Assembly (NCBI RefSeq): GCF_000143415.4
Contig: NW_003314448.1
Coordinates: forward strand, 1 to 64,000
DNA length: 64,000 bases
Reading direction: 5' to 3'
Origin: Selaginella moellendorffii
Taxonomy: Eukaryota; Plantae; Lycopodiophyta
Part shown: in pieces, positions 2,001 to 31,048 of the stretch
How the letters are laid out: each line of letters opens with the position of its first letter
How positions within the stretch are numbered: position 1 is the first letter of the stretch
Position numbers and translations under genes: made by a program
Notes under the pieces: model-generated
The model's input: only the letters and a program-made list of their open reading frames with translations
What the model was told of the DNA's origin: nothing
Database searches by the model: none

Positions 2001-2076
2001 GCCGCCCAGCGCCGCGCAGCGTCTCTAGCACCGTGGCTGTCCCCAGCACTACGGCTGCCACCAGTGACGCCCAGTG

Positions 2077-6710: not shown

Positions 6711-8888
6711 CCACGTCTTGTACCACACTTTGCAAGACACGGAAGCATATGTTTGCATCCCTCTCCGCATACCCTATGACTCCCAGGGTCTGGCCGATGG
6801 ACTTCAGGTATGTCCCAAGTCACTCCAGGCCACCCCCCTTTCGAGTCAACGCCAGGTCAACGCGGAGTCAACGGTCAGAACGGAATATTCCCCAATATTC
6901 CGACTGTATCCCTGTTGACCGAGTCAAAACGGCATATACCGTTGGATTCCGCTCTTCCTTCCGATCGTGAATATGTGAGTTTCAACTCTGAACTCCACAC
7001 ATGACTCGTGGAAAAGCGTGTATTCCGTTAAAACGGTGCCGCTCCCTCGACATCGGCGACACACGCCGACAGCTCGCGGGATGGCTCTCCCCGACACAAC
7101 CGCTGGACTCCGAGTATGTATGAGTGACCTCAGGCCCTCCACCACCACAGTCCACACACGGTCAACGCGGGGTCAACGGTCAACGACGGAATATTCCGAG
7201 AATATTCCCTGCAAAGTGAACCACGTTTTTTCGTCGCCGGGTACGTACAAGTGATACAAGCATTGTGGACGTAATGCATGCATCATATCATGCCGCGTTC
7301 ACAAGTTATCTCGCGTCAAAGGTACATCACCCGCCGGACGAACGCTTACTGTCTTCGGCGATCCGCCGAAGTCATTCTCCGCGACTACCACTGCTGTGGA
7401 GTAACCAACACCAGCTGTGCTACGTTCGCACCCTTGCGAGCCAACGCTGCCACGCCACTTCGCATGGCCGCCACACGGACTCGCGCCACGTGACAGAGCC
7501 AAAATATAAGTAGAGTCGGCACCGAGCTAGGGTTAAGGTAGACACTAGATGACTACACTCGACTCGTCCACGTTCCAGAAGCCCCTCAATGCCTACCAGT
7601 ACCTCCCCTGGACGTCGGTTCACCCACGGCACCAGAAGGTGGCATTCATCCGCAGCGAGCTCCGGAGATACCTCCTCCGCGAGAGCACGGCCGATGGATT
7701 CCACACCATGCGCACGCGGTTCTACCACCACCTCCGTGCCCGGGGATACCCGCCCTCCTTCCTCCATCACTGCTTCTCCGGCATCTCCTACGACCAGCGA
7801 CATCAAGCTCTCCTTGCACGTTCGCGCCGCTCTAGCGACGCCTGTCGACGGGCCCCCCTCGCCTTCAAGCTGCCTTACACACTCCACAGCGCGCAGCTAG
7901 GCTTGGGGGACATCCTAAACCCTAAACAGGTGATGGATGAAGCTCCCGCAGACACACTCCCCCGAGTGATTACGTGTTGGAGACGCTCCCCGAACCTCGG
8001 TTCGTTCCTGGTCAGGGCCAAGCTCCCTCCGCGAGCTTAGCCACGTCTTGTACCACACTTTGCAAGACACGGAAGCATATGTTTGCATCCCTCTCCGCAT
8101 ACCCTATGACTCCCAGGGTCTGGCCGATGGACTTCAGGTATGTCCCAAGTCACTCCAGGCCACCCCCCTTTCGAGTCAACGCCAGGTCAACGCGGAGTCA
8201 ACGGTCAGAACGGAATATTCCCCAATATTCCGACTGTATCCCTGTTGACCGAGTCAAAACGGCATATACCGTTGGATTCCGCTCTTCCTTCCGATCGTGA
8301 ATATGTGAGTTTCAACTCTGAACTCCACACATGACTCGTGGAAAAGCGTGTATTCCGTTAAAACGGTGCCGCTCCCTCGACATCGGCGACACACGCCGAC
8401 AGCTCGCGGGATGGCTCTCCCCGACACAACCGCTGGACTCCGAGTATGTATGAGTGACCTCAGGCCCTCCACCACCACAGTCCACACACGGTCAACGCGG
8501 GGTCAACGGTCAACGACGGAATATTCCGAGAATATTCCCTGCAAAGTGAACCACGTTTTTTCGTCGCCGGGTACGTACAAGTGATACAAGCATTGTGGAC
8601 GTAATGCATGCATCATATCATGCCGCGTTCACAAGTTATCTCGCGTCAAAGGTACATCACCCGCCGGACGAACGCTTACTGTCTTCGGCGATCCGCCGAA
8701 GTCATTCTCCGCGACTACCACTGCTGTGGAGTAACCAACACCAGCTGTGCTACGTTCGCACCCTTGCGAGCCAACGCTGCCACGCCACTTCGCATGGCCG
8801 CCACACGGACTCGCGCCACGTGACAGAGCCAAAATATAAGTAGAGTCGGCACCGAGCTAGGGTTAAGGTAGACACTAGATGACTACAC
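6228..8888 (+). repeat. 1330-bp tandem duplication (pseudo-LTR): 6228-7558 and 7558-8888
   Basis: Near-identical copies of the RT C-terminus plus 3' UTR at a constant offset of 1330, with a 1-nt junction overlap. Confidence 0.95.
8815..8840 (+). promoter_or_regulatory. Putative Pol II promoter in the PLE 3' UTR (G-box GCCACGTG plus TATAAG)
   Basis: Motifs lie ~50-75 nt upstream of the hammerhead. Also present at ~7485-7510 and ~21220-21245. Confidence 0.45.
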
Positions 8889-8929: not shown

Positions 8930-9074
8930 TGTCTCTTGTCCTCTCCCTCGCTCACGAATGAATGAAAATTCATTCCTTTGCCTCCTCTACTTGCTCTCAA
9001 TCATGCCGTTTCGACAACGGCACACGGAGAATGTGGATTGCACAAAGTGGTGCCGCGATCTCGCCGGATTGCAA

Positions 9075-10767
9075 GGATTGCCCTAAGTTGTTTGAGGAGA
9101 GAGCTCGAAGGCGCTAGAGAGAGAGTGTGAGAAAGAGGGAGGGAGCGAGCGTCCAGGGCGGCACAAGCATCGCAGACCGCGGCAGCAACACACGGAGCTC
9201 GTCTCCCTCCTCTTTCTCCTCTTTTCTCTCGCTCTCTGTCGTTTTTATCGATATCTCCCAAACGGCTGGGAGAAACCTCGATTCCTTCGACGGGGGGCTT
9301 CTAGGAGTGTAGATTCTCATCCTCCTAGAAGGCCGCGGCGAGATCTGCCACGGATCTGGAGATCTCGCTGGCCCTAGGTCGCTGCTGTTTCTAGGGTTCT
9401 TCGGCGGCGGCTAGGGTTTTTCGGGGCTTAGAGATTTGGAGGAGTGGAGAGGGCAGCTAGGAACACCACGGCTGCAGCAGCTGGACGCTCTCCTCTCCTC
9501 CTCTTCTTTTTTCGCTTCTCATGGTTTCAAGTTTTTTGGGAGCTCATAACTCCTAAACGGCTTGGAATGTTTCCACAAAAATTCACAGGGGGATAGCTGG
9601 GAGGGAGCCTCACACCCTCCCAGAAGCGCAGGCAAAAATTCTTCACGGTCTCAGAGTTCTCACCTGCCCTAATTCGTGGCTAGGGTTAGGGTTCTTGGCT
9701 AGCTTTTGCCCTAACTGCGGTTAGGGCAGGACTTAGGGTGGCGGCGGGATCTTCGATCCGGCCACTCTAAGTGTCAGGGATCTTCGTTGCATGTGGTTGG
9801 CACGGCAGCAACATGGTGGAAACGCGACGGTTGCTGGTCTCGCAGCTTCGAGCGGGATTTCTCGCCTTAGGTCGGGCCATGCAAGGTGGTGACTAAGGTA
9901 CGGAGAGCGTGAAGCTGCATGTGTCGGAGGTTCTTGGCGACTTGAGTCGTGGAAACACGACCAAGTCATGGGAATTTTGTTGACTGGTGGAGGACAGTTT
10001 GGGACGACATCCCGACATAGCGAAGTGTCCGCAGTGGATGGACGTGGAGGACACTATGGGCGCATTTTTGGATCTAGTGACAGGGGAGTGCTGTCACAAA
10101 GGGGGCCAGTGGCAGATGGCCGAGTTGGTTTGCTCGCGGAGGGGATCCCACATGGTTCTTGCTTCAGGGCTAGTCCTTTGAGGAGGTTCGCGGAGGCTTG
10201 CAAGTCTTGTGATTGTCGCGATGCCGGCAACGGGGGCTCGTATATCATTGAAGGGGGCCAGCGCACTTGTCTAGTGTGGGAGGCAAGGTAGCACGCTCTA
10301 GTCTAGAGCTCGAGGAGGCTCACACCTCGCTTGTTCTACGCCTTGGAGTTTGTTCGCAATGGGCACCGACTTAGTGCTGGAAGTACACTGGGGAGGTAGG
10401 CGCTCCAAGACACAGCATCACGTCTTGGGGCGTAACAGGTGGCTTCAGCTTGTGCAGTGGAGTCACCTTGGAGGCGAGTGACCCATGAGCGACGCCGGGT
10501 CATCGTGCTCGAGTTGGACCGCTTGGCTGCGACGACGTCGAGCTAGATCGACATGGTGTTCGTCTGGCCTGACATCATTGTGACCGAGTGGAGGAGTGGC
10601 AAGGCGAAGCAGGTGGCTTCAAGCTCCGCGGTGGAGTCACCTGGGAGGCGGACGGCCCAAGAGCAGCGCCGGGCGTTCGTGCTCATAGTTTCACTAGTTT
10701 CTTCGAGAGTGCGCTCTCAATGTTGTTTTGATCCCTTTGGGATTGGGGTAATGTACATATATGTTTA
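9075..10767 (+). mobile_element. 1.7-kb non-coding insert in the PLE terminal hairpin, copy 1
   Basis: Flanked by GCGATCTCGCCGGATTGCAA at 9055-9074 and 10768-10787. Its last ~45 nt resemble the LINE 3' UTR at ~551-596. Confidence 0.7.
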
Positions 10768-10806
10768 GCGATCTCGCCGGATTGCAACACCACGGGGTGT
10801 CTTTGA

Positions 10807-10902
10807 CCCTAAACGCCTAAACGCGCCTAAACCCTAAACCCTAAACCCTAAACGCCTAAACGCGCCTAAACCCTAAACCCTAAACCCTAAACCCTAAACC
10901 CT
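10807..10902. repeat. Interstitial telomeric tract with embedded CGCCTAAACGCGCCTAAA variants
   Basis: Read directly from the sequence. Confidence 0.95.
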
Positions 10903-12438
10903 GCCCAGTACCGCCTGGTACCGCCCAGTGCCGCCCAGCAGCTCCAGGCCGGGCATTTACGTTGGCCCCCCTGTGCTGCACCTCACCGCCAGGACGCCAC
11001 AGAAATCCCTGCCTGGAGCCACTAAGAGTCTCGAAGCTAGCTCTGCATCTCCACACAGCAGCTTTTCTGGCGTCTGGTGCGGCCCAGCTCCCCTGACTCA
11101 GGTCCGGCATAGCAAATGCCCCACAAAGGCTTTTTGGTCCCCCCTTGGCGGCTGCTTCGGCACCACCAAGGGATTTCCAAAAATGCTAGGGGGATTGCTC
11201 CCTGCTGTTGAGAGCGCCTGTGCCACCCAGACATCACCACAAAGCTGCTGTGATCTCTGGCATGATGCCCCTCACTCCCCTCGCACAGGTTTGGCACAGC
11301 ATGTCTCCAGGCCGGGCATTTGCACTGGCCTCTGCGCGCTGTGTTCCGCCGCCAGAGCGCCACAAATAATCCCCACCTGGAGCTGCTTACGGCCACTAAG
11401 AGTTTGGGAGCTAGCTTGATATCTCCACTCAGCAGTCTTTCCGACGTCTAGCGCAGCCCAGCCCCCCTGACTTGGGTCTGGTACAGCAAATCCCTCACAA
11501 CGGCTTTTTGTCCCCCTCTGGTATGTTGCCTTGGCACCACCAAAGGATCACCAAAGATGCCAATGGGAATGCTCCCTGCCACTCCGAGCACCCAAGCTGC
11601 CTAGACATCGCCACAACACTGCCAAAAATCGACCTAATCTGCCATGGAAGCACAAAACCAACTTTGCATGCCAGCACTGGCCCTGCTACTGCAGAGCCAG
11701 ACACTATGCCGATGGCACGGGCTCTCTCACCACCTCTGGTGCCAGATCCCTTGCAATCGCCACCCAGGCCAGCCCTTGCCACTGGAACAGAGCAGCGAGC
11801 CCTCTCGCCTTAATGCTCTCCAGGACCTGGCCCAGCGCAGCAGCCACTGTCACCTTTGCACTTGGCTCTGCTCTGCGTGTCCATGACACCACACTCAACA
11901 CTCTCGACGAGTGCCTCGACACAACCAACAAATTGCCCTTCTATCGACAGAGGTACACAGATGACGGAGGGACAGGTACACGAGCAGGCCTCGAACGATG
12001 GCTCCGAGGATATGGCACGCTACGTCCCTCGATCAAGATCACCTCGGTGATCTCGCTCGAGGAGTTGGATATCCTTGATATCCACTTCTTCAAAGGCCCT
12101 CGCTTTGAAGAGACACGCTGCCTCGACTCGTCCACGTTCCAGAAGCCGCTCAATGCCTACCAGTACCTCCCCTGGACGTCAGTTCACCCATGGCACCAGA
12201 AAGTGGCATTTATCCACAGCGAACTCCGGAGATACCTCCTCCGCGAGAGCACGGCCGATGGATTCCATGCCATGCGCATGCGGTTCTACCACCGCCTCTG
12301 TGCCCAGGGATACCTGATCTCCTTCCTCCAACACTGCCTCTCCAGCATCTCCTCTGACCAGTGACATCAAGCTCTCCTTGCACGCTTGCGCCGCTCTAGT
12401 GACGCTTGTCGACGGGCCCCCCTCGCCTTTAAGCTGCC

Positions 12439-13585
12439 TGTAAGCCACAATTTTTCCTTTCCAATTTGCCAGCTTACCTCGTCTATCCGTCCAACACTGC
12501 CTTGGCTTTTGCTAAGTTCCCTTGCCAAGGTTCTCGCCTATGGTACCAGCCCCTACTTGGTTTCAGCTACTCACTGCACGAGCAACGGAGTGTTAGCCAT
12601 CCTTCCACGGATTCCCAAATCACTCCCAATCCCCCTCCCCGGGTTAGACTGGACTTAAGGTTCGGCTACACTCCCCGCAAGCACAAGCAGCCAAGCACAC
12701 CAAGCTTCCAGGTTCCTAACATCCCTTGGTACCACAAGACTTGATCATGGGACCCTCTAAATCCCAAGTCTTGAGTGCAACACTTGCTTCGGGACGCCGG
12801 GGCGAAACACCGTGGCCTAACGGCCCGGTATGGGTACCTCTCGCTCCCCACTTCCATCCCGAAGGAAGGCCCAAGCCCCTTGGAAGGGCGAGGACCAATG
12901 AGCCGCATGGTACTCAAGTGGGGCACCACTCCACATGAGCCGGGAGCACCGCAATCGGTTTCCCTTTCGGGAGTGGGAGCTGCTCTTGAGCACTTCCTTG
13001 GATGGCCCCTCCGGCACCAGCCAAGTCCATGCTCACTCCCACCCAAGGCCCCTTAGTCCCAGTCCCAACCTCAAGTCGGTTTGGAAGCCCAACTGGAGAG
13101 TCCCTTCAAAACTGGTTCCTGGACCTCACTATCCCTACTATACTTTTGGAACCCCCTGCAGCCCCCCCCCCCTGGGGGACGCACGCTTTGGGCTTTCACC
13201 CCTTGACCCGTATTAGTATTTGGACTTAGTCTCTGGCTCGATCTCGGATCCGATTTCGGATCCGACTTCGGATTCGGTCTCGGACTCGATCGCGGACTCG
13301 ATCTCGGACCCGATCTCGGGCCCGACCTCGGACTCGACTTCGGACTCGGTCTCGGACCCGATTTCGGATCTCGGACTCCGTCTCGAACTCGGTCTCGAAC
13401 TCGGACTCGAACTCGGTCCCCGAGTCGGTCTCGGACTCGATTCCGGACTCGATCTCGAACTCGGTCCTAGAGTCGGTCTTGGACTCGATCTTTGACTTGG
13501 TCCCATCCGATGAACTCTTTGTCATTTTGGTCATGCTTTCGGGGTTCCCTTAGCCTACGACACCTCGGCGAGTTGGTTCCTTACA
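12439..13585 (-). repeat. 3' LTR of the Gypsy element, containing a TCTCGG/ACTCGG microsatellite-like block
   Basis: Copy of 18822-19968 at offset 6383. Confidence 0.95.
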
Positions 13586-13989
13586 ACTCCACCACCCATA
13601 GAAGAAGTTCGATGCCCACATCGAACGTCTCTTTTTTATCCTACGACTTGTTGACCATGTCTCCGGGGGCATCCCCCCACTTAGCGGTGTGCCTAAGTTA
13701 GCCTCCCCGGCCAAGAGCTCATGACAACGGAATATAGGTGTCCCTATACTCCACCCCTCACCACGCCCTAGTATGGGGTCGGGACTTGAACCCAGCCTTG
13801 CTTTACTAGGGGGTTGGGACTCGAACCCAACCTCCGTAGAATACGTCTACGGTTTCGACATCCCCGCAGGGAGTCGGGCGTAGCTCCCTACGCCTGGTCG
13901 ACCTAGCTAACCCATGCTAATTAGCTCACCTTTGGCGCGCCTTCGGGTCCCAACATATGCCACTTGCTCAACTTTGCAAATTGATATTT

Positions 13990-16900
13990 TTAATTGAACT
14001 TTGCATAAGTACATAGAGTTCTGCCTTGCAGAAATTCCTCCACTAGATCTCGCGCGTTCGCTAGGTTCTCCTCCGGTTCCCATGTTGCTTCGCAGTGTGG
14101 AAATCCTTTCCACTTCACATGGAACTCTCTCACCTCGCGTCCTTGTCGCTTGCTCTTGCGCGCATTGAGGATGGCCTCGACTTCGTATTCCTCTTCCCCT
14201 TGGATAACCTCAGGTAAAGGTCTTACTTGGTCTTTGCGAAGCGGATCCTCAAAGTACGGCTTGAGTAAGTTCACATGGAACACTGGGTGCATCTTCCCCA
14301 TCTCTCGAGGAAGTCGGAGTCGGTAAGCCACTTTACCGATTCGTGCCTCAATCTCGTAAGGCCCCGCGAACCTGCTCAAGGAACTCAAGATCAATTCATT
14401 TACAGGAATACATGCATTTTTACCTTTGGGTCAACTTTCGGCTGATCCCACTTGGTAGCCTAAGGTTCTTGGTGTTCAGCCACACCTTCTCCCCAGCTTG
14501 GAACTCTACGTCCCGGCGCTTTAGGTTCGCGTACTTGGTTTGCCTTTGTTGAGCCCGTTCCAAGGAATCCCTCACTAGATTCCAAATGTTGAGTCTTTCC
14601 GCCGTGAATGCCTCCACTGCGGGTAACTCTCCATGATACTCGGCCACGCCAAGTTCCACAGGACCTTCAATAGCTCGCCCATTGATGACTTCCCATGGAC
14701 TCACCCCGATACTCGAATGTGGTGAGTTGTTATAACACATTTCCGCAAGTCCCAAATGACTTACCCAATCGGTCTGGTCTCCCGAGACATAGCATCGCAA
14801 ATAATCCTCCAGCTGCCTATTCACCCTTTCCGTTTGTCCGTCTGTCAAGAAGTGTTAGGACCACCAAACTTGACTTAATACCCCATACCTGTCTGTGGGT
14901 GATAGGCTGTGCTGAATTTCAACTTGGTGCGATACTGTTCCAGGAGGGTCCTCCAGAACCTACTAGTGAAGATCTTATCTCGGTCTGAGATAATCTCCTC
15001 TGGCCTTCCCCGCACTCGAACCACTTGTTCGAAGAACAGTTTCGCCACACCTTCCGCATCCACCTCCGTTGTGGTGGGTATGAAATGTGCCATCTTCGAA
15101 AATCGGTCCACCACCACGAATATCGCATCGAACCCCTCGCTTGGGGGTAGTCCCGTGATGAAGTCCATCGTGAGACATTTCCACGGACGATCTGGAATGG
15201 GGATGCTTTGCAACAAGCCCCCACTAGCCTTAGTCACGGCTTTGACCTGCTGACATGTTGGACATGTCTTTACATAGTCTTGGACGTCCTTAGCCATATC
15301 TGGCCAATGGTACTTCCTCTTGAGTAAGCCCATCGTCTTGGGCACTCCGCCGTGTCCCGCAAGAGGTCCGTCATGACACTCTTCTAAGGCTACCTTCCTT
15401 AGTCCACCTTCTGGAACATACACCCTCGTTTGCTTGTAATAAATGAGTCCATTGCGTTCCGCATAGCCCGTTTTCTCTTCCGTTGGCGGCTCACCTCTCT
15501 GGTGAGCTTCCCGTGCCTCCAGATTCCTCAACAACACTTCTTGTGCTAGACCATCGTTCTCATATGCTGTCCGCACATCGTCCCAGAAGGTTGCTGTTGC
15601 GCTGGAGATCGCCAACCTCAAGCTCGCTTTTCGACTTAGCGCATCTGCCACGATGTTGCTCTTCCCAGGCTTGTACAGGATCTCGCAATCAAACTCGGCC
15701 AAGGCATTGGCCCACCGACCTTGTTTCCCTCTCAGGTCGGGTTGTGACAAGAAGTGTTTCGTTGCCACATTGTCCGTGTAAACCTTGAAGTGTCTCCCAA
15801 GGTAGTGTCGCCACTCCTTGAGCGCCTTGACCACCGCAAACAATTCCTTCTCGTGGGCAGGCCACTTCCGTTGAGCCTTGTCCAGCTTCTTCGAGAAGAA
15901 CGCTACTGGATGGTTGTCTTGCTTCAAAACTGCGCCTAACGCAAAGTCCGAAGCATCCGTGTCTACCTCAAAGTCCTTACCAAAGTCCGGTAATGCCAAC
16001 ACCGGAGCCTTCCTCAACTTCCCTTTGAGGTGGACGAATGCCGCCTCGCATTCCGCTGTCCATACCATCTTCCCTTTTCCCGTTTGATCCGTTAAGGGTA
16101 GGGCTACTCTCGAATAGTGTCTGATAAACTTTCGATAGTAGTTGCATAGCCCCAAGAACGCCCTCAACTCATGTACATTCGATGGTCGCTCCCATTCCTG
16201 GATCGCTTGGACCTTCTCCGGGTCCACCTTGAGCCCATCCTGGCCCACCACATGCCCGAGAAACTTTACCTCTTGCTGAGCAAAGTCACATTTGCTCTCT
16301 TTAGCATACAGTTTATGTTCCCTTAGTTTCTCAAACACCTTCGCCAAGTGTTCGGCATGCTCCTCTAGCGTCTCGCTATAGATCAGGATGTCGTCAATAT
16401 AGACGACCACAAAGTGATCCAGATAGGGTACAAAGACGTGGTTCATCAACGCCGAAAACGTTGCCGGCGCATTGCACAGCCCAAAGGGCATCACCAAAAA
16501 CTCAAAGCTCCCATACCTCGTTCGACAGGTTGTCTTCTCGACATCTTCCTCGGCTACCCTGATCTGGTAGTATCCTGACCTTAGGTCAATCCTCGAGAAG
16601 TATTTTGCCTTTCCCAACCTATCGAACAGGTCCTCAATCCTTGGCAACGGGTACTTGTTCTTCTTGGTATACTTGTTGAGCAACCGGTAATCTATGCACA
16701 TGCGCATAGATCCATCTTTCTTTTTCACAAATAATACCGGCGCCCCATACGGCGACTTGCTCAACCTAACATACCCTTTGCCCACCAACTCCTCTAGTTG
16801 GCACTTGAGCTCCTTGAGTTCTTTTTCGTTCAAACGATAGGGGGGACGAACCACCGCCTCAGCGCCCTCGACAAGCTCAATCTTATGTTCTATCGGTCGT

Positions 16901-18762
16901 GCGGGGGGCAACCCCGCCGGTAGCTCCTCCGGCATGGTATCCTGGAATTGGTCCAACACTCGCTGGATCACTAAAGGCACTTCTTCCGTTCTTGTCTTTT
17001 TGTCACTCTTCACCGAGAGTAAGCACAAAAAGGCTGCCTTAGTTCCTTTAGTGAGTTGTCCTCTCGTGGACACCAGGTTCAAGCATGACTCTTTGGCCTT
17101 GCTTTGCCCTACCTTTAGATCCTGGGCCTCCACCCTAGATCTTCTTCCTTGGGCATTCGCCAATACCACAAGGTTCCTACCTTGTCCATGCAGGGCTACC
17201 ACGAACCGATTAAACCAATCCATTCCGAAGATCACGTCAAATCCCGCCATATCCAAGACGGTGAAATCCATGTCCACTTTCCATGTCCCCACTTCGACTC
17301 TCGCTTGTCGAAGTACCTCATCGGTGCTTTGGCTACCCTGAACAAACTCTATAGTCCTTGGTTCGCCTAGCCGCTGCACCGTTAGTCCGGCTTGCCGGAC
17401 TATGTCTGCAGCCACAAAATTATCCGAAGCACCCGTGTCAATAAGGATCTTAACAAAGCTACCTCCGAGCTTCCCTCGGAGGGCTAGTAGATGTCGCGAA
17501 CGACTCTCTACCAAAGTTGCTCGTGTAATGAGTAACTTTGAGTTAGGGACTGGATCACATACCTCAGTTTGGACTTCACCCGACTTGATGGCCATATTGG
17601 CTCTGGCCTTCTTCGGGTAGGGACATTCCCTCGAGAAGTGTCCCGCTTCGCCGCAGTTGTAGCATACGTTGTTTCCCACGCTGCTATACGACTTGACCTT
17701 CTTATCCGTGGGTTTGTCCTTTTTCGCTTGACTCCCCCACGTACTCGCTCGCTGGCCACCGGATTTGCCTTTCCGGAACCCCGAGGACTCATTCTTAGAG
17801 AAACTCCTTTTGAATTTCCCCTTGCTATACGTTCCCCTTGGTTTGGCCCCTTTGCTAAATGTGGATCCCGACCCCGTCGTGTTCCCCTTTCGCAGGTTAT
17901 CGTTGAAATGCACCTTGATGGCCGCATCCAACGCTTCCTTGTAGTTGGTCGGGTTCCACCTCATCACCTCGCCGCGAGCCCAGGTTTGCAAACCTGATAT
18001 GAAGGCATGGAACGCATCCATATCCCCCATGTCCGTGACAAGTATCCTCTTTGCCATGAACCCATTCACATATTCCTGGATGGTTCCTGTCTGTTTCAGC
18101 CTACTCAGTTCATCCCTCAGATGCAGAGTGGCATTCGGAGGGACATATGTTGCGCGGATCCTCGCCTTCATCATGTCCCAAGTGACCACCGGTCCTTCGT
18201 TGGCCTCCGTTGTTCTCCACCAAGACTTGGCATTATCTGCCAAGTATGGTTTTGCACATGGGACCTTCTCCGAGCTTGGTAACCGCAACGCTCGGAAGTA
18301 GTCCTCCATATCGTAAAACCAATCCTCCACCACCTTATAGTCATTCACTCCCTTGAAGACCGGTGGGGGCTTTGGTTTGTACTTGGGAACTGCCTGAGGG
18401 ACTGATTCCACTTCGGTCTGTTCGACCTTGTCTGGTTTTGCCTCAGTCCCGGCCGAAAGATCCGCACCTTCTGCGCTGCCAGCATCCGCAGTCTTTTTCT
18501 TTTTCTTCCGCCTCTCGTCACGCTTTAGCTTGCGTACGAGAGTTTCCAGCAGGGCATTGGTCTGTGCCAACTGTCCTTCTAGCACGTCCAATCGAGCCTT
18601 GGACGACCGAACCTCGCCACCGGACTCCTGTTTGGAGGTTTCCTCACTGGAGTCCTCCTCATGCAAGGATTCCTCATCCATAGCCTCTTGTTCGACCGGA
18701 GGCTCCAGCTCTGGCGGAGGTTCCGTCTCCGCTTGGGTTTGCTTACGCCCTGCCCTTGCCAT
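13990..18762 (-). CDS. Gag-Pol (Gag, CCHC, protease, RT, RNase H, integrase, chromodomain); join(18762-14889,14841-14424,14371-13990), 1557 aa
   Basis: [33 protein letters not shown] and SDRD motifs. Splicing restores HPQTDGQTER and QRFAGPY. Chromodomain EYEVEAIL...VKWKG...TWEP. Confidence 0.9.
14372..14423 (-). other. 52-nt GT-AG intron in the integrase C-terminal region
   Basis: AG|GTAAAA...TTGAGCAG|G. Removal joins KLTQR to FAGPY in frame. Confidence 0.85.
14842..14888 (-). other. 47-nt GT-AG intron in the integrase catalytic core
   Basis: AG|GTATGG...CTAAC...TGACAG|AC. Removal restores HPQT-D-GQTER. Confidence 0.9.
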
Positions 18763-18821
18763 CTCCCAGCAATCCGCCTCTATCCTTCGCTAGAACTGAG
18801 GAAAAGGCTCCGATACCAAAT

Positions 18822-19968
18822 TGTAAGCCACAATTTTTCCTTTCCAATTTGCCAGCTTACCTCGTCTATCCGTCCAACACTGCCTTGGCTTTTGCTAAGT
18901 TCCCTTGCCAAGGTTCTCGCCTATGGTACCAGCCCCTACTTGGTTTCAGCTACTCACTGCACGAGCAACGGAGTGTTAGCCATCCTTCCACGGATTCCCA
19001 AATCACTCCCAATCCCCCTCCCCGGGTTAGACTGGACTTAAGGTTCGGCTACACTCCCCGCAAGCACAAGCAGCCAAGCACACCAAGCTTCCAGGTTCCT
19101 AACATCCCTTGGTACCACAAGACTTGATCATGGGACCCTCTAAATCCCAAGTCTTGAGTGCAACACTTGCTTCGGGACGCCGGGGCGAAACACCGTGGCC
19201 TAACGGCCCGGTATGGGTACCTCTCGCTCCCCACTTCCATCCCGAAGGAAGGCCCAAGCCCCTTGGAAGGGCGAGGACCAATGAGCCGCATGGTACTCAA
19301 GTGGGGCACCACTCCACATGAGCCGGGAGCACCGCAATCGGTTTCCCTTTCGGGAGTGGGAGCTGCTCTTGAGCACTTCCTTGGATGGCCCCTCCGGCAC
19401 CAGCCAAGTCCATGCTCACTCCCACCCAAGGCCCCTTAGTCCCAGTCCCAACCTCAAGTCGGTTTGGAAGCCCAACTGGAGAGTCCCTTCAAAACTGGTT
19501 CCTGGACCTCACTATCCCTACTATACTTTTGGAACCCCCTGCAGCCCCCCCCCCCTGGGGGACGCACGCTTTGGGCTTTCACCCCTTGACCCGTATTAGT
19601 ATTTGGACTTAGTCTCTGGCTCGATCTCGGATCCGATTTCGGATCCGACTTCGGATTCGGTCTCGGACTCGATCGCGGACTCGATCTCGGACCCGATCTC
19701 GGGCCCGACCTCGGACTCGACTTCGGACTCGGTCTCGGACCCGATTTCGGATCTCGGACTCCGTCTCGAACTCGGTCTCGAACTCGGACTCGAACTCGGT
19801 CCCCGAGTCGGTCTCGGACTCGATTCCGGACTCGATCTCGAACTCGGTCCTAGAGTCGGTCTTGGACTCGATCTTTGACTTGGTCCCATCCGATGAACTC
19901 TTTGTCATTTTGGTCATGCTTTCGGGGTTCCCTTAGCCTACGACACCTCGGCGAGTTGGTTCCTTACA
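18822..19968 (-). repeat. 5' LTR of the Gypsy element
   Basis: Adjacent to the PBS TGGTATCGGAGCC on the minus strand. Confidence 0.95.
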
Positions 19969-21291
19969 CTGCCCTACACGCTTCACAGCATGCAGCTAGG
20001 CTTGGGGGACATCCTAAACCCTAAACAGGTGATGGATGAAGCTCCCGCAGACGCACTCCCCTGAGTGATCACGTGCTGGAGATGCCTCCCGAACCCCAGT
20101 TCGTTCCTGGTCAGGGCTAAACTCGCGTTGCGAGCTCAGCCACATCTTCTACCGCACTTTGCAAGAGACGGAAGCATATGATTGCATCCTTCTCCGCATG
20201 ACCGATGACCTTCAGGGTCTGGCCAATGGACTCTAGGTATGTCCCAGTCACCCCAGGTCGTCCCCCACCGGTCAACGCCCGGTCAACGCCCAGTCTACTG
20301 TCCAAACAGGAGTATTCCCGAATATTCCCTGACAGTCAGATTGTTGACCGAGTCAACGAGGCCTACACCATTCGATTCTGCACCCCTTTCCAAGTGTGAC
20401 TACGTTGGTCTCATCTCCTTACGATGGACACCACACCTTGGAAAGCTTGCGAATCTCATAATGGTGCCATGCGACGACGTCGACGCCACACGTGCCGACA
20501 CCGCATACCCTATGACTCCCAGGGTCTGGCTGATGGACTTCAGGTATGTCCCAAGTCACTCCAGGCCACCCCCCTTTCGAGTCAACGCCAGGTCAACGCG
20601 GAGTCAACGGTCAGAACAAAATATTCCCCAATATTCCGACTGTATCCCTGTTGACCGAGTCAAAACGGCATATACCGTTGGATTCCGCTCTTCCTTCCGA
20701 TCGTGAATATGTGAGTTTCAACTCTGAACTCCACACACGACTCATGGAAAAGCGTGTATTCCGTTAAAACGGTGCCGCTCCCTCGACATCGGCGACACAC
20801 GCCGACAGCTCGTGGGATGGCTCTCCCCGACGCAACCGCTGGACTCCGGGTATGTATGAGTGAGCTCAGGCCCTCCACCACCACAGTCCACACACGGTCA
20901 ACGCGGGGCCAACGGTCAACGACGGAATATTCCGAGAATATTCCATGCAAAGTGAACCACGTTTTTCGTTGCCAGGTACGTACAAGAGACACAAGCATTG
21001 TGGACGTAATGCATGCATCATATCATGCCGCGTTCACAAGTTACCTCGCGCCAAAGGTACGTCACCCGCCGGACGAACGCTTACTGTCTTCGGCAATCCG
21101 CCGAAGTCATTCTCCACGACTACCACTGCTGTGGAGTAACCAACACCAGCTGTGCTACGTTCGCACCCTCGCGAGCCAACGCTGCCACGCCACTTCGCAT
21201 GGCCGCCACACGGACTCGCGCCACGTGACAGAGCCAAAATATAAGTAGAGCTGGCGCCGAGCTAGGGTTAGGGTAGACACTAGACGACTAC

Positions 21292-21334
21292 ACCCGGCTG
21301 ATGAGTCCCAAAAAGGACGAAACCGGTCTCGGGT
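21292..21334 (+). ncRNA. Minimal type I hammerhead ribozyme, second copy
   Basis: Identical to 8887-8929. CTGATGA at 21298-21304, predicted cleavage after C21328. Confidence 0.92.
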
Positions 21335-21478
21335 TGTCTTTTGTCCTCTCCCTCGCTCACGAATGAATGAAAATTCATTCCCTTGCCTCCTCTACTTGCT
21401 CTCGATCATGCCGTCTCGACAACGGCACACGGAGAATGTGGATTGCACAAAGTGGTGCCGCAATCTCGCCGGATTGCA

Positions 21479-23119
21479 GCAAAAGCCCTAAGTTGTTTGA
21501 GGAGAGAGCTCGAAGGCGCTAGAGAGAGAGTGTGAGAAAGAGGGAGGGAGCGAGCGTCCAGGGCGGCACAAGCATCGCAGACCGCGGCAGCAACACATGG
21601 AGCTCGTCTCCCTCCTCTTTCTCCTCTTTTCTCTCGCTCTCTGTCGTTTTTATCGATATCTCCCAAACGGCTGGGAGAAACCTCGATTCCTTCGACAGGG
21701 GGCTTCTAGGAGTGTAGATTCTCATCCTCCTAGAAGGCCGCGGCGAGATCTGCCACGGATCTGGAGATCTCGCTGGCCCTAGGTCGCTGCTGTTTTTAGG
21801 GTTCTTCGGCGGCGGCTAGGGTTTTTCGGGGCTTAGAGATTTGGAGGAGTGGAGAGGACAGCTAGGAACACCACGGCTGCAGCAGCTGGACGCTCTCCTC
21901 TCCTCCTCTTCTTTTTTCGCTTCTCATGGTTTCAAGGTTTTTGGGAGCTCATAACTCCTGAACGGCTTGGAATTTTTCCACAAAAATTCACAGGGGGATA
22001 GCTGGGAGGGAGCCTCACACCCTCCCAGAAGCGCAGGCAAAAATTCTTCACGGTCTCAGAGTTCTCACCTGCCCTAATTCGTGGCTAGGGTTAGGGTTCT
22101 TGGCTGGCTTTTGCCCTAACTACGGTTAGGGCAGGACTTAGGGTGGCAGTGGGATCTCCGATCTGGCCACTCTAAGTGTCAGGGATCTTCGTTGCATGTG
22201 GTTGGCACGGCAGCAACATGGTGGAAACGCGACGGTTGCTGGTCTCGCAGCTTCGAGTGGGATTTCTCGCCTTAGGTCGGGCCATGCAAGGTGGTGACTG
22301 AGGTACGGAGAGCGTGAAGCTGCATGTGTCGGAAGTTCTTGGCGACTTGAGTCGTGGAAACACGACCAAGTCATGGGAACTTTGTTGACTGGTGGAGAAC
22401 AGTTCGGGACGACATCCCGACATAGCGAAGTGTCCGCGGTGGATGGACGTGGAAGACACTATGGGCGCATTTTTGGATCTAGTGACAGGGAAGTGCTGTC
22501 ACAAAGGGGGCCAGTGGCGGATGGCCGAGTTGGTTTGCTCGCGGAGGGGATCCCACATGGTTCTTGCTTCAGGGCTAGTCCTTTGAGGAGGTTCGCGGAG
22601 GCTTGCAAGTCTTGTGATTGTCGCGATGCCGGCAACGGGGGCTCGTATATCATTGAAGGGGGCCAGCGCACTTGTCTAGTGTGGGAGGCAAGGTAGCACG
22701 CTCTAGTCTAGAGCTGGAGGAGGCTCACACCTCGCTTGTTCTACGCCTTGGAGTTTGTTCGCAATGGGCACCGACTTAGTGCTGGAAGTACACTGGGGAG
22801 CTTGTGCAGTGGAGTCACCTTGGAGGCGAGTGACCCATGAGCAACGCCGGGTCATCGTGCTCAAGTTGGACCGCTTGGCTGCGACGACGTCGAGCTAGAT
22901 CGACATGGTGTTTGTCTGGCTTGTCATCATTGTGACCGAGTGGAGGAGTGGCAAGGCGAAGCAGGTGGCTTCAAGCTCCGCGGTGGAGTCACCTGGGAGG
23001 TGGACGGCCCAAGAGCAGCGCCGGGCGTTCGCGCTCATAGTTTCACTAGTTTCTTCGAGAGTGCGCTCTCAATGTTGTTTTGATCCCTTTGGGATTGGGG
23101 TAATGTACATATATGTTTA
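21479..23119 (+). mobile_element. 1.65-kb non-coding insert, copy 2
   Basis: Flanked by GCAATCTCGCCGGATTGCA at 21460-21478 and 23120-23138. Confidence 0.7.
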
Positions 23120-23158
23120 GCAATCTCGCCGGATTGCAACACCACGGGGTGTCTTTGA

Positions 23159-23410
23159 CCCTAAACGCCTAAACGCGCCTAAACTCTAAACCTAAACCCT
23201 AAACCCTAAACCCTAAACGCGCCTAAACCCTAAACCCTAAACCCTAAACCTAAACCCTAAACCCTAAACCCGTAAACCCTAACCCCTAAACCCTAAACCC
23301 TAAACCTAAACCCTAAACCCTAAAACCGCCGGATTGCAGCACCGCGGGGTGTCTTTGACCCTAAACGCCTAAACGCGCCTAAATCCTAAACCCTAAACCC
23401 TAAACCCTAA
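23159..23410. repeat. Interstitial telomeric tract with a ~57-nt truncated terminal module at 23327-23383
   Basis: CCCTAAA arrays on both sides of CGCCGGATTGCAGCACCGCGGGGTGTCTTTGACCCTAAACGCC... Confidence 0.95.
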
Positions 23411-23885
23411 TCCAGAAAAAGCTCAATCTAGCTCTTTATGGGACGCCCAAAAAAGGAGCCCTGCACACCAGCACTACCAGCAGAGAATCGGCCCAGAATC
23501 TAGGGCTACAAAGAATGGGTGTAACTTAGTCAAGGATGTCCTGCTCTCAACCTTGACCGTCTGGAGGCTTGAGGGTGGATTTCTTGCACTAGTTCCCTGT
23601 GAAGAATTTATGGGTGTAACTCAGAGAAGGATCTCCTGCTCTTCTGCTGACCGTCTGGAGGCTTAAGAACAGATTTCTTTCACTAGCTCCCCATGAAGGA
23701 TGCAACGTGGATCTACACTCTCACCAAATGACTTCATTATGACTCACCAAATGGCTGAAACCCTTCACCAAATGGCTGATCGTATGTTGCCACGTAGAAT
23801 TAATCATCCATGTATATATATTTCTTCTTAGGTATCTCAATCCCTTACACTTTCTGCTCGCTGTGACGGTCTGTGAGTAGTAGGC

Positions 23886-26594
23886 ATGCAAGCTTCTAGC
23901 CCTTTTTCTTCATCTTCATCGCCACTTAGTCATAGTTTAAGTGCTGGAGTGCCCTTGAATCTCATCTGTTCTATCAACGCTGCTGCAGATCAGGAGATAC
24001 CAACGAATTCCCGGTCCCCCACACCGGAATTCTCACCTCCTGAGTCAAGGCAGAACACACACGACACGCTCGTCTTGCCTTCCCAACAGACACTTGTCTT
24101 GCCTTCTCAGCGTGCACAAGCTCCTCAATCTCATCGTGGACTGTGGCCGAATTTCTCTCACCGGGACGTTCGCTCATACTTCATCCGGGACTCTGGTCCA
24201 GGACCGATTGAGATTGAAGACACAGCTGCAACTTCTGGAGTAATGCATGACCAGTGTTCTCTTCCTCTTATGGCAAATGCTCCTCCATCACCTCCTCACA
24301 TTGCTTCATCATCTCGTCAAACACCAAATCCTCCACCATCCAATTCCATTCATGGATCAGCCCCTATTCACGGATTTACACTCTCATCTCGTATCATACC
24401 ATCTTCTTCCTCCACACCAAATACAACGCTGTCTTCCATACCAATTACAACGCTTACTACCATACAAACGTCCTGCTCTGCACCAGTTCCAACACCACTA
24501 CCACGCACTCTACCACCTCAAACGTCAGTTCCAACACCACTACCACGCACTCTACCACCTCAAACGTCAGTTCCAACACCACTACCACGCACTCTACCAC
24601 CTCAAACGTCAGTTCCAACACCACTACCACGCACTCTACCACCTCAAACGTCAGTATATGCACTCACGACCGAGTCTCCTCCAGCTTCTCCTGAATTCTT
24701 GAGGGAACTGGCACTTACAGAGGAACGACACTTGGCTGAACGACACTTGGCTTCACGACCTGTCTCAGCACCACTGTCAACGGCTACATGGTCCACTGTA
24801 GCATCAGTGACAGATATGCAGCCCACTCTGCCTCCAGCAACTGCCCCAGTAGCAACTATGCCGCCTAGGAGATCCGTTGTGCCACCTGTGACCACCTCTA
24901 CATCCCCTATGGCTGTGCCTACAACAAACTCACTCTCACCACATGCACCAGCATATACACCCATGTCTACGCTTGCATGTACCTCTGTGCTCACAACTAC
25001 AACCATCCATACACCTACTCCATCGACAACTAGCCCTCCTCTCTTTGCTACAACACCTCATACTCCACCAACTTTCTCCATCTCGCCTCCTGTTCCATTA
25101 ACCTTCTCCACCACACCACCTTTCTCCATGGCCTCAACTTTACCAACACTCTTTTCATCAACAACTTCAATCCCACCACCTTTTTCATCCCCAGCTGTGC
25201 CATCATCTACTCCATTCTCTGGATTGGTAGACCTCTTCACAGTGTTGCAGAATAGTGCTGGCATTTCTGCTACTGGAAACACTCTTCCACAGCAGTTGCC
25301 ACCTTTCCTTGCCCCTGGCAATGCCCTCACTAGCTCCTCGACTGAGGGACTTGGTAGGCTTGATGAGGCTCTTTCTGCCATCCTTGAATGCTCGATCAAG
25401 GAATTCATGAACGAGCTCAAGTCTCTAAATCAAGCTCACAAGGCTGTGAAGAGATTGACTCAGCTCCGTGATAAAAAGCAGTTCCCTCAAGACCTTCGCA
25501 TTCGTGTGCCAAAGCTTGAGGTGACCTCTCACGGTCAGGAACTTCTTGATACCAGCATCAAAGCAATCCACGAACAATACTTGAAGGACCTTCTTGATTC
25601 TCTGCTCAAGGCACGAGAGGCTGAGGCTGCTACCCTTGCGGATCTCATCAACCATGGACTCTCTCAACGTTTTAATGATCGAATGGATGATTTTGTTCAC
25701 TGTGCTTTGCAGGCTTGTGGCAATGCACAACGAGAGGCTGTCACACATACTCTCAATGCCCGCAAGCATCAGTTGATAGCTGAATACCAACGTGCGACTG
25801 CAATTGGAGCAGTGGCATATGGAGTTGAGGAGAGCAAAAAGGAAAATGCTCGCAAGCAAAGGGAAGCTGCAGAGGATGCTGCACGAGCCAAGGCGGAGAC
25901 ACTGCCCAAGGAAGACACTGTTAAGATGCTTGTCCAGAGCTGCTTTGACAAGATGTGGAAGGAGAGGGAGCGTGGAATTCCGAGACAACACCACGAAGAT
26001 GCTGGCAGAGGCACCAGATCACAAGGCAAACGACAGCAAAGGACGGATACCTCACTCCACATACGTGAAGCAGGCTCTTCAAAGACACGCAAGGTTTCTC
26101 TCCCCAGTGGTGAACGTGACGTTACCCATGGACGGCAGGGAAACGAGCAGGGGCGGAATGTGGTTACTGGGACTCCTCCCACCCATTCCGATGCCCCGGG
26201 TTTTTCTTCAAGGGGTCCCTTGCACCGGCAATCTCCAACCGTGCTTGGTTCCCAGCCAGCCATGACTGGCAGAGGTGGCCAACGCCAGTCTCGAGGAAAC
26301 GGTCGACCCCCACGGTCCCAACCGAACTGGCCAAGCGGCCGAGGGCGCCAGACTACACCACGACCTCCTCCAGCAGCCCAACAACGCCAGCCAACTCAGA
26401 ACCAGAAACCACCTTCACCTCCCAGAGGACAAGAGATGCAGCCCTCACAGCACCACAACAACACCCCACTCCACGAACGAACCCAACGCTATGGCTTGGG
26501 AAGAAACTCGCCTCCACAGCAACGCCCGCACTCTCCAGTTACGGCAGTGCCTGTGGACAGAAAAGGCAAGGCAAAAGTTTCTGGCTACCTTTGA
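23886..26594 (+). CDS. PLE family-2 ORF1 (Pro/Thr-rich plus coiled-coil)
   Basis: 902 aa, homologous to the core of 2077-4866. Confidence 0.85.
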   Translation: MQASSPFSSSSSPLSHSLSAGVPLNLICSINAAADQEIPTNSRSPTPEFSPPESRQNTHDTLVLPSQQTLVLPSQRAQAPQSHRGLWPNFSHRDVRSYFIRDSGPGPIEIEDTAATSGVMHDQCSLPLMANAPPSPPHIASSSRQTPNPPPSNSIHGSAPIHGFTLSSRIIPSSSSTPNTTLSSIPITTLTTIQTSCSAPVPTPLPRTLPPQTSVPTPLPRTLPPQTSVPTPLPRTLPPQTSVPTPLPRTLPPQTSVYALTTESPPASPEFLRELALTEERHLAERHLASRPVSAPLSTATWSTVASVTDMQPTLPPATAPVATMPPRRSVVPPVTTSTSPMAVPTTNSLSPHAPAYTPMSTLACTSVLTTTTIHTPTPSTTSPPLFATTPHTPPTFSISPPVPLTFSTTPPFSMASTLPTLFSSTTSIPPPFSSPAVPSSTPFSGLVDLFTVLQNSAGISATGNTLPQQLPPFLAPGNALTSSSTEGLGRLDEALSAILECSIKEFMNELKSLNQAHKAVKRLTQLRDKKQFPQDLRIRVPKLEVTSHGQELLDTSIKAIHEQYLKDLLDSLLKAREAEAATLADLINHGLSQRFNDRMDDFVHCALQACGNAQREAVTHTLNARKHQLIAEYQRATAIGAVAYGVEESKKENARKQREAAEDAARAKAETLPKEDTVKMLVQSCFDKMWKERERGIPRQHHEDAGRGTRSQGKRQQRTDTSLHIREAGSSKTRKVSLPSGERDVTHGRQGNEQGRNVVTGTPPTHSDAPGFSSRGPLHRQSPTVLGSQPAMTGRGGQRQSRGNGRPPRSQPNWPSGRGRQTTPRPPPAAQQRQPTQNQKPPSPPRGQEMQPSQHHNNTPLHERTQRYGLGRNSPPQQRPHSPVTAVPVDRKGKAKVSGYL
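24484..24654 (+). repeat. 42-bp x4 in-frame tandem repeat (VPTPLPRTLPPQTS)
   Basis: Read directly from the sequence. Confidence 0.9.
26138..26197 (+). promoter_or_regulatory. Predicted -1 frameshift signal, family 2
   Basis: G_GGA_AAC at 26138-26144, a 5-nt spacer, then stems GGGGC/GCCCC, GGAATG/CATTCC and TGGGA/TCCCA. Confidence 0.85.
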
Positions 26595-28780: not shown

Positions 28781-28928
28781 TCACACCACTAAGCTTGTTT
28801 ATTTCCTGACCACTAAATGAAAATTCACTCCCTCGCCTCCTCTACTTGCTCTCGATCACGCCGTTTCGACAACGGCACACGGAGAATGTGGATTGCACAA
28901 AGTGGTGCCGCGATCTCGCCGGATTGCA

Positions 28929-30568
28929 AAAAAGCCCTAAGTTGTTTGAGGAGAGAGCTCGAAGGCGCTAGAGAGAGAGTGTGAGAAAGAGGGAGGGAGC
29001 GAGCGTCCAGGGCGGCACAAGCATCGCAGACCGCGGCAGCAACACACGGAGCTCGTCTCCCTCCTCTTTCTCCTCTTTTCTCTCGCTCTCTGTCGTTTTT
29101 ATCGATATCTCCCAAACGGCTGGGAGAAACCTCGATTCCTTCGACGGGGGGCTTCTAGGAGTGTAGATTCTCATCCTCCTAGAAGGCCGCGGCGAGATCT
29201 GCCACGGATCTGGAGATCTCGCTGGCCCTAGGTCGCTGCTGTTTTTAGGGTTCTTCGGCGGCGGCTAGGGTTTTTCGGGGCTTAGAGATTTGGAGGAGTG
29301 GAGAGGACAGCTAGGAACACCACGGCTGCAGCAGCTGGACGCTCTCCTCTCCTCCTCTTCTTTTTTCGCTTCTCATGGTTTCAAGTTTTTTGGGAGCTCA
29401 TAACTCCTGAACGGCTTGGAATTTTTCCACAAAAATTCACAGGGGGATAGCTGGGAGGGAGCCTCACACCCTCCCAGAAGCGCAGGCAAAAATTCTTCAC
29501 GGTCTCAGAGTTCTCACCTGCCCTAATTCGTGGCTAGGGTTAGGGTTCTTGGCTGGCTTTTGCCCTAACTACGGTTAGGGCAGGACTTAGGGTGGCAGTG
29601 GGATCTCCGATCTGGCCACTCTAAGTGTCAGGGATCTTCGTTGCATGTGGTTGGCACGGCAGCAACATGGTGGAAACGCGACGGTTGCTGGTCTCGCAGC
29701 TTCGAGTGGGATTTCTCGCCTTAGGTCGGGCCATGCAAGGTGGTGACTGAGGTACGGAGAGCGTGAAGCTGCATGTGTCGGAAGTTCTTGGCGACTTGAG
29801 TCGTGGAAACACGACCAAGTCATGGGAACTTTGTTGACTGGTGGAGAACAGTTCGGGACGACATCCCGACATAGCGAAGTGTCCGCGGTGGATGGACGTG
29901 GAAGACACTATGGGCGCATTTTTGGATCTAGTGACAGGGAAGTGCTGTCACAAAGGGGGCCAGTGGCGGATGGCCGAGTTGGTTTGCTCGCGGAGGGGAT
30001 CCCACATGGTTCTTGCTTCAGGGCTAGTCCTTTGAGGAGGTTCGCGGAGGCTTGCAAGTCTTGTGATTGTCGCGATGCCGGCAACGGGGGCTCGTATATC
30101 ATTGAAGGGGGCCAGCGCACTTGTCTAGTGTGGGAGGCAAGGTAGCACGCTCTAGTCTAGAGCTGGAGGAGGCTCACACCTCGCTTGTTCTACGCCTTGG
30201 AGTTTGTTCGCAATGGGCACCGACTTAGTGCTGGAAGTACACTGGGGAGCTTGTGCAGTGGAGTCACCTTGGAGGCGAGTGACCCATGAGCAACGCCGGG
30301 TCATCGTGCTCAAGTTGGACCGCTTGGCTGCGACGACGTCGAGCTAGATCGACATGGTGTTCGTCTGGCTTGTCATCATTGTGACCGAGTGGAGGAGTGG
30401 CAAGGCGAAGCAGGTGGCTTCAAGCTCCGCGGTGGAGTCACCTGGGAGGTGGACGGCCCAAGAGCAGCGCCGGGCGTTCGCGCTCATAGTTTCACTAGTT
30501 TCTTCGAGAGTGCGCTCTCAATGTTGTTTTGATCCCTTTGGGATTGGGGTAATGTACATATATGTTTA
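28929..30568 (+). mobile_element. 1.65-kb non-coding insert, copy 3
   Basis: Flanked by GCGATCTCGCCGGATTGCA at 28910-28928 and 30569-30587. Near-identical to copy 2. Confidence 0.7.
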
Positions 30569-30607
30569 GCGATCTCGCCGGATTGCAGCACCGCGGGGTG
30601 TCTTTGA

Positions 30608-31048
<441 letters not shown>

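What the first reader, a model, noticed from the sequence alone, without database searches (positions are those of the whole stretch)
14372..14888. Two spliceosomal introns inside the integrase of a recently inserted Gypsy chromovirus
Seen: 47-nt (14842-14888, with CTAAC branch point) and 52-nt (14372-14423) GT-AG segments, each frameshifting and containing an in-frame stop. Precise removal restores HPQTDGQTER and RFAGPY and gives a 1557-aa polyprotein. The LTRs appear identical and the TSD is intact. The unspliced RNA stops before the catalytic Glu of D,D35E. Established: retrotransposition normally purges introns, and known LTR-element splicing (copia gag mRNA, Ogre) is not of this form. Inference: the unspliced RNA is selectively packaged while splicing gates integrase/chromodomain production.
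Basis: partly seen in the sequence, partly recalled or inferred. Interest (0 to 1): 0.85.

Follow-up and report, generated by a model that had tools for sequence, protein, structure and literature searches.

The report
Retrotransposon that inherits introns in integrase
A young, very abundant jumping gene, likely of a spike moss, carries two small introns in the middle of its integrase gene that are cut out of its RNA yet kept in its DNA copies, likely because a further intron removes the copying start site from spliced RNA so that only unspliced RNA would be copied.

Summary
Confirmed and extended. The 7,530-bp element has identical 1,147-bp LTRs and a true 5-bp TSD. Its 47- and 52-nt GT-AG segments interrupt the integrase. 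One RNA-guess contig skips both exactly; one read from a recorded RNA-seq run skips the 47-nt one. A DNA-guess run shows both segments family-wide, with no exact skip among the 15 of 240 joints shown. No intron-sized insert occurs at either site in 80 related loci. One is 157 nt and yields Gag alone; the other is 65 nt and removes the primer-binding site. The element matches SM1-Galahad of Selaginella moellendorffii in its dimensions (ORFs 3,885 and 309 bp). That family was published in 2012 as three broken ORFs with no intact copy; introns were not mentioned. Likely mechanism: spliced RNA makes Gag and full integrase but cannot be primed, so unspliced RNA is copied. Packaging is untested and the splice evidence is thin. 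Ogre, BARE1/EVADE and foamy viruses use related logic; ten literature searches found no introns inside an LTR-element integrase. The scan noted a similar LTR/PBS intron in another genome.

The parts
18822..19968 (-). 5' LTR, 1,147 bp, TG..CA, with an 11-nt poly-G tract and 12-nt tandem repeats
12439..13585 (-). 3' LTR, identical to the 5' LTR
12434..12438 (.). Target-site duplication CTGCC, left copy
19969..19973 (.). Target-site duplication CTGCC, right copy
18796..18860 (-). Leader intron, 65 nt, GT..AG; spans the LTR end and the primer-binding site
   Evidence: X15 contig aligns to 18797 and its loose end maps to 18863-18882; inferred from a loose end, one contig
18806..18818 (-). 13-nt primer-binding site (tRNA-Met type according to the published family description)
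14889..18762 (-). Coding exon 1: Gag with CCHC knuckle, protease, RT, RNase H, integrase zinc finger and core up to HPQT
   Evidence: Pfam; PDB
17406..17562 (-). Alternative 157-nt GT..AG intron after codon 400; skipping it gives a stop one codon later (Gag-only product); when retained it codes the protease start
   Evidence: skipped in one X15 contig; frame
14842..14888 (-). Integrase intron 1, 47 nt, phase 1, just before the catalytic Glu
   Evidence: skipped in the X15 contig and one X22 read; kept in DNA
14424..14841 (-). Coding exon 2: catalytic Glu, rest of the integrase core, start of the SH3-like domain
14372..14423 (-). Integrase intron 2, 52 nt, phase 2, inside the GPY/F motif region
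   Evidence: skipped in the same X15 contig; kept in DNA
13990..14371 (-). Coding exon 3: SH3-like domain and chromodomain, stop
   Evidence: Pfam PF24626, PF00385
13586..13599 (-). Purine-rich tract before the 3' LTR
11924..12433 (+). Interrupted host site: RT end of a telomere-associated, Penelope-like element (label recalled), continuing at 19974-20378
   Evidence: self-BLAST

Best explanation
This is a recently inserted Gypsy chromovirus, likely of the SM1-Galahad family of Selaginella, whose integrase is split by two introns that are cut out of RNA but kept in the family's DNA copies, likely because spliced RNA also loses the primer-binding site and so only unspliced RNA would be reverse-transcribed. 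Shown: the anatomy, exact skipping of the 47- and 52-nt segments in one transcript-type contig, their presence across DNA copies, and third-position bias in the two downstream exons. Inferred: one LTR transcript has three fates. (a) Leader, 157-nt and integrase introns removed: Gag only, giving the capsid excess that a single-ORF element needs. (b) Leader and integrase introns removed, 157-nt intron kept: the full 1,557-residue Gag-Pol with working integrase and chromodomain. (c) Nothing removed: genomic RNA with the primer-binding site and LTR end, which is packaged and copied and so hands all four introns on. The unspliced RNA could at most give an integrase that ends before the catalytic Glu.
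For:: X15 contig 1 (2,500 nt, about 96-97% identical to the window) skips 52 and 47 nt with CT..AC ends; contig 2 skips 157 nt; contig 3 leaves the internal region at 18797 and resumes in the LTR at 18863, a 65-nt GT..AG gap. One read of 11 laid from RNA-seq run X22 skips the 47-nt segment, first mate on + as expected for a minus-strand RNA in a stranded library; in DNA-guess run X1 (93,157 contigs laid), positions inside both introns are covered by 71-88 variant-bearing contigs; X4 contig 13989-14940 has no gap; 14 of 16 listed differences in exons 2-3 fall on third codon positions of the spliced frame (p 1.2e-5); the consensus of hundreds of SM1-Galahad copies has ORF1 3,885 bp/1,295 aa and ORF3 309 bp, as here; no intron-sized insert in 73 loci assessable at junction 1 or 46 at junction 2, of 80.
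Against: Splice evidence is thin. The 52-, 157- and 65-nt skips each rest on one contig of one run whose RNA status is a guess; X23 gave 1 read and X24 none. X17, a second RNA-guess run from another study, shows only unskipped forms, which may be genomic RNA or DNA. Contigs cannot phase the four events, so isoform (b) was never seen whole. Only 15 of 240 X1 joints were shown and the tool warned that some were not counted, so rare intron-less copies are not excluded. X1 depth inside intron 1 (3.2e5) is a third of the bin mean (9.4e5), though some exonic sites are as low. The guard works only if leader splicing is coupled to the others: an RNA keeping the leader but losing the integrase introns would found an intron-less lineage, and the sister SM2-Galahad thrives as one ORF. 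A related LTR end at 38455-38520 lacks the same donor and acceptor. The codon test used the 40 of 158 rows shown.
Confidence: 0.58

Rival explanations
1. The introns are real, but they are inherited because genomic RNA is a separate pool that never meets the spliceosome (another start site, uncapped, or exported by an element protein, as in BARE1), or because an intron holds a packaging signal. The leader intron is then a by-product.
For: BARE1 replicates only unspliced TATA1 RNA, and DNA copies of its spliced RNA were not found. X17 shows wholly unskipped forms and X15 wholly skipped ones, which fits two pools.
Against: No start-site data. No TATA-like match was found in the LTR by a simple scan. 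The introns fold no better than shuffles, and intron 1 varies across the family, which is poor for a fixed packaging signal.
Confidence: 0.24
2. The family is effectively non-autonomous: the insertions crippled its integrase, it spreads with integrase from the intron-free sister SM2-Galahad, and splicing is incidental.
For: The sister family is abundant and has one intact ORF. Expression is very low (11, 1 and 0 reads in three runs).
Against: Exons 2-3 are open and biased to third-position change in the spliced frame; SH3 and chromodomain score well. Non-autonomy would not explain why spliceable introns survive reverse transcription.
Confidence: 0.1
3. The skipped forms come from intron-less genomic copies (DNA in the libraries), not from splicing.
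For: X15 is only guessed to be RNA, its contigs differ from the window by 3-6%, and single intron-less copies could hide among the 225 unshown X1 joints.
Against: Four separate GT..AG skips, one deleting the primer-binding site and one ending the ORF after Gag, are not what a retrotransposed copy would carry. One read comes from a recorded RNA-seq run. Even an intron-less copy with exact ends would imply past splicing.
Confidence: 0.05

Closest known systems
SM1-Galahad (Galadriel-clade chromovirus of Selaginella moellendorffii; Novikov et al. 2012, PMC3350952)
   Same: About 7.5 kb; LTR 1,146 vs 1,147 bp; poly-G tract; 13-nt primer-binding site; ORF1 3,885 bp/1,295 aa; ORF2 316 vs 318 bp; chromodomain ORF3 309 bp; hundreds of copies.
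   Different: Published as three ORFs with no intact copy; the main text has no hit for 'intron' or 'splic'. This copy has identical LTRs and a TSD. No sequence comparison was possible.
Ogre (Tat-lineage Ty3/gypsy)
   Same: A genome-retained intron with stops must be spliced from a subset of transcripts to translate the full polyprotein, integrase included (passages).
   Different: Ogre's single intron lies between the Gag-protease and RT-RH-IN ORFs. Here two short introns interrupt the integrase domain itself.
BARE1, EVADE and Drosophila copia short-Gag splicing (Ty1/copia)
   Same: An alternative intron just after gag shifts the frame to an early stop, like the 157-nt intron; unspliced RNA is the replicated genome.
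   Different: Those are Copia elements whose unspliced RNA encodes the whole Pol. Oberlin et al. saw no such conserved splicing in Arabidopsis Gypsy. Here unspliced RNA cannot encode a whole integrase.
Foamy viruses
   Same: Pol comes from a spliced mRNA and the major splice donor lies inside the LTR, upstream of the primer-binding site.
   Different: Animal retroviruses with a separate pol ORF and no intron inside integrase in the passages read.
Penelope-like elements
   Same: Retain introns after retrotransposition, called highly unusual among retroelements.
   Different: A different class and mechanism, with no tRNA priming or DDE integrase.

Membership tests
Ty3/Gypsy LTR retrotransposon | LTRs with TG..CA ends, TSD, primer-binding site, purine tract | tested here: met
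Ty3/Gypsy LTR retrotransposon | Domain order Gag-PR-RT-RH-IN with D,D(35)E integrase | tested here: met
   (Glu reached only across intron 1)
Chromovirus | Chromodomain at the integrase C-terminus | tested here: met
   PF00385 E 1.7e-16 in exon 3; joined to integrase only after both skips
SM1-Galahad | Element, LTR and ORF dimensions, poly-G, 13-nt primer-binding site | tested here: met
SM1-Galahad | More than 80% nucleotide identity to the family consensus | not testable with these tools
   reference sequence not held; best protein relatives 55% or less
Galadriel clade | Placement in an RT/IN tree | not tested
   taken from PMC3350952 only
U2 spliceosomal intron | GT..AG ends, donor consensus, branch-like site, AT-richer than exons | tested here: met
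   branch site weak for the 52-nt intron
U2 spliceosomal intron | Exact removal in RNA | tested here: met
   one contig for both, one raw read for the 47-nt intron
U2 spliceosomal intron | Joined form absent from DNA | tested here: inconclusive
   absent from the 15 of 240 joints shown
U2 spliceosomal intron | Lariat or spliceosome dependence | not testable with these tools
   needs bench work
Ogre-type intron | Intron lies between Gag-PR and RT-RH-IN ORFs | tested here: not met
   Gag to integrase core is one open frame
Short-Gag (BARE1/EVADE-type) intron | Alternative intron after gag whose removal gives an early stop | tested here: met
   one contig
Short-Gag (BARE1/EVADE-type) intron | Spliced RNA is the main source of Gag protein | not testable with these tools
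   needs polysome or protein data
Introner (transposon-made intron) | Terminal repeats, TSD, many copies elsewhere | tested here: inconclusive
   5- and 4-nt repeats at the two junctions; no terminal inverted repeat seen by eye; genome not held

The most novel reading that the evidence does not exclude
An LTR retrotransposon has evolved a four-intron, gene-like expression programme. A leader intron across the LTR end deletes the primer-binding site from every mRNA, which insulates the genome from intron loss. That let ordinary spliceosomal introns be gained inside the integrase catalytic domain and inherited through hundreds of retrotranspositions, so integrase is made only from RNA that cannot be copied.
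Probability: 0.42. Interest if true: 0.86.

Novelty: new variant of a known kind. Interest (0 to 1): 0.74.

Why it matters
Intron loss on retrotransposition is the textbook proof of an RNA intermediate, and intron retention is treated as a peculiarity of Penelope-like elements. A high-copy LTR family that keeps introns inside an essential enzyme domain must fully separate messenger from genome RNA. It offers a natural test of how that is done in plants, with an intron-free sister family in the same genome as control. It also turns a family published as having no intact copy into a likely autonomous one, and warns that ORF-based annotation will call such elements dead.

Tried and rejected
No whole genome was held, so copies could not be counted. 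No run indexed as RNA held the stretch (no evidence either way). X24 gave 0 reads (no test); X20 (organism B) did not cover the integrase junctions. Folding the three short introns gave z 0.25, 0.38 and -0.19: no structure claim. Three protein searches and the representative search found no close relative. A 1,577-aa hit of the same length as SM2-Galahad was an unrelated Centaurea element. The host lineage could not be confirmed from a host gene: one search was blank and the atlas did not answer; the Selaginella assignment rests on the match to the paper. Ribosomal frameshifting was rejected because each break is a 47- or 52-nt insert with a stop. Assembly error was rejected because the segments are in independent DNA contigs and the 2012 consensus has the same breaks. 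Earlier-findings look-ups by sequence and by place were empty. The Ogre paper was not held. The REXdb supplement search gave 0 hits for Selaginella in 5 short files, so its element table was probably not seen; Repbase and Dfam entries cannot be searched here and might already note these introns.

Full report
Observation. The finding lies in a 7,530-bp minus-strand LTR element, window 12439-19968. The LTRs are 1,147 bp and identical. The 5-bp duplication CTGCC is real, because an uninterrupted copy of the target at 6515-6580 has it once. One frame runs from the ATG at 18762 through Gag, CCHC knuckle, protease, RT, RNase H and integrase core and stops after 1,295 codons at HPQTGMGY. Two further frames hold the rest of the core and the SH3-like and chromo domains. 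The gaps between the frames are the two GT..AG segments of 47 and 52 nt. The exons sum to 1,557 codons. Against Ty3-G Gag-Pol, exon 1 ends at residue 1267 and exon 2 starts at 1269. With X at the break, the second Asp and the Glu are 35 residues apart. 98 of 120 homologues carry HPQ[TS]DGQ[TS]E unbroken.

RNA evidence. Four runs were laid. X15 (contigs, RNA by guess) gave three contigs. One 2,500-nt contig skips both segments exactly. A second skips 157 nt at 17406-17562, GT..AG on the element strand. A third aligns to 18797, and its loose end maps to 18863-18882 in the LTR with 2 mismatches, which is a 65-nt GT..AG gap at 18796-18860. Of three recorded RNA-seq runs (about 12% of each read), X22 gave 11 reads, one of which skips the 47-nt segment; X23 gave 1 read and X24 none. 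Splicing is therefore seen in two studies for intron 1 and in one contig each for the other three. In one search, X17 (RNA by guess, another study) showed only unskipped forms: contig 14419-15027 and contig 18691-19495 run through intron 1 and the leader intron. These may be unspliced RNA or DNA.

DNA evidence. In X1 (DNA by guess), 93,157 contigs were laid, so the family is very abundant (depth is not a copy number). Sites inside both introns are covered by 71-88 variant-bearing contigs. The four intron variants among the 40 of 419 rows shown spare the GT, the AG and the CTAAC. None of the 15 joints shown, of 240, is an exact intron skip, but the tool warned that some were not counted. Depth in intron 1 is a third of the bin mean, as at some exonic sites. 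X4 (kind unknown) has a gap-free 952-nt contig across both introns. Rare intron-less copies remain possible.

Function of the downstream exons. Of the X15 differences listed (40 of 158 rows), 11 of 13 in exon 2 and 3 of 3 in exon 3 fall on third codon positions of the spliced frame (p 1.2e-5), like 21 of 24 in exon 1. This points to purifying selection on protein that can only be made by splicing.

Background. Among 80 related metagenome loci (43-56% identity), junction 1 is contiguous in 70, shifted by one base in 3 and not assessable in 7. Junction 2 is in frame in 45, shifted by one base in 1 and not assessable in 34. None has an intron-sized insert. The introns are lineage-specific gains, most likely. 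Short repeats of 5 and 4 nt flank them, which fits gain by insertion or break repair (inference).

Identity. Section 2.1 and Table 1 of PMC3350952 (read) describe SM1-Galahad of Selaginella moellendorffii: about 7.5 kb, LTR 1,076/1,146 bp, poly-G tracts, a 13-bp tRNA-Met primer site, ORF1 of 3,885 bp and 1,295 aa, and extra ORFs of 316 and 309 bp, the last holding the chromodomain. The window gives 7,530, 1,147, 11 G, 13 nt, 3,885/1,295, 318 and 309. The authors built a consensus from a number of the hundreds of copies, found no intact copy, and the main text has no hit for intron or splicing (supplement not read). The sister SM2-Galahad has one 1,577-aa ORF. The match is by dimensions, not sequence.

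Mechanism. Shown: four GT..AG segments can be skipped, and DNA copies keep the two in the integrase. It follows that the template of this insertion was unspliced. Removing the 157-nt segment after codon 400 gives a stop one codon later, the same outcome as short-Gag splicing in BARE1 and EVADE. The 65-nt leader segment contains the last 39 bases of the LTR and the whole primer-binding site, so a spliced RNA could not be tRNA-primed (established retroelement biology). Inferred: spliced RNAs supply Gag and full Gag-Pol, and unspliced RNA is the genome. The weak link is coupling: the guard fails if integrase introns are removed from RNAs that keep the leader. A BARE1-like separate RNA pool is the main rival. 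Non-autonomy and intron-less DNA copies fit less well.

Prior knowledge. Ten searches turned up no report of introns inside an LTR-element integrase or of introns in SM1-Galahad; I read listings, not every hit. A 2025 review says plant LTR elements generally lack introns, naming Ogre and EVADE as exceptions (PMC12786077, passages). Ogre's intron lies between ORFs (PMC6317226 and PMC4408406, passages; the primary paper was not held). BARE1 (PMC3735527, abstract and most of the Discussion) and EVADE (PMC5580714, passages) splice for Gag. Foamy viruses make Pol from spliced RNA using a donor in the LTR (PMC5035957, passages). Maize LTRs contain introns in non-coding RNAs (PMC13192763, passages). 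Penelope-like elements retain introns (PMC8557442, passages). Passages of PMC2864245, PMC12477816 and PMC9940879 added nothing. Repbase, Dfam and most subscription journals were not searchable. An unchecked note of this scan (e1-9795892) reports a similar 49-nt intron across an LTR/primer-site junction in another genome, without RNA data.

Verdict. A real feature: a known family misread as broken, now with RNA support for introns inside its integrase and a plausible device for inheriting them. New variant of a known kind; interest 0.74.

Noticed in passing
window 1-200, 2068-6710, 23877-28438: The window starts in CCCTAAA telomere repeats, followed by head-to-tail two-ORF RT elements separated by telomere-like repeats; they look like telomere-associated Penelope-like elements (label recalled; weak RVT_1 hits).
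   Followed up: partly
window 12434-12438 / 19969-19973: The chromovirus landed in the RT C-terminus of a 5'-truncated copy of that telomeric element.
   Followed up: yes
window 31071-39855: A nest of related LTRs (73% alike to the focal LTR in part) with primer-binding sites at 36375 (-) and 38502 (+), an RT fragment at 30765-31049 and inverted duplications; the related LTR end lacks the focal leader-intron donor and acceptor.
   Followed up: partly
window 6228-8888, 8961-10902, 20501-23322, 28816-30766: Near-identical subtelomeric repeat blocks (97-99.9%), including a 1,330-bp tandem duplication.
   Followed up: no
window 45752-46168, 52288-52617, 53051-53419, 54973-55431: Host gene fragments: UDP-glycosyltransferase, MiAMP1-type antimicrobial peptide (no homologue found), BAHD-type transferase and an LRR protein.
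   Followed up: partly
window 46270-47680: Decayed Gypsy fragments (RNase H on minus; SH3/chromo-like on plus).
   Followed up: no
run X20 on window 13590-19560: A second organism label holds pieces 95-99% alike to the element, some with LTR-end loose ends; a close relative or a mislabel.
   Followed up: no
window 42292-43155 and 53872-54608 / 63265-64000: Nested inverted repeats around an AT-rich stretch (MITE-like) and a 700-bp perfect inverted pair 8.7 kb apart.
   Followed up: no
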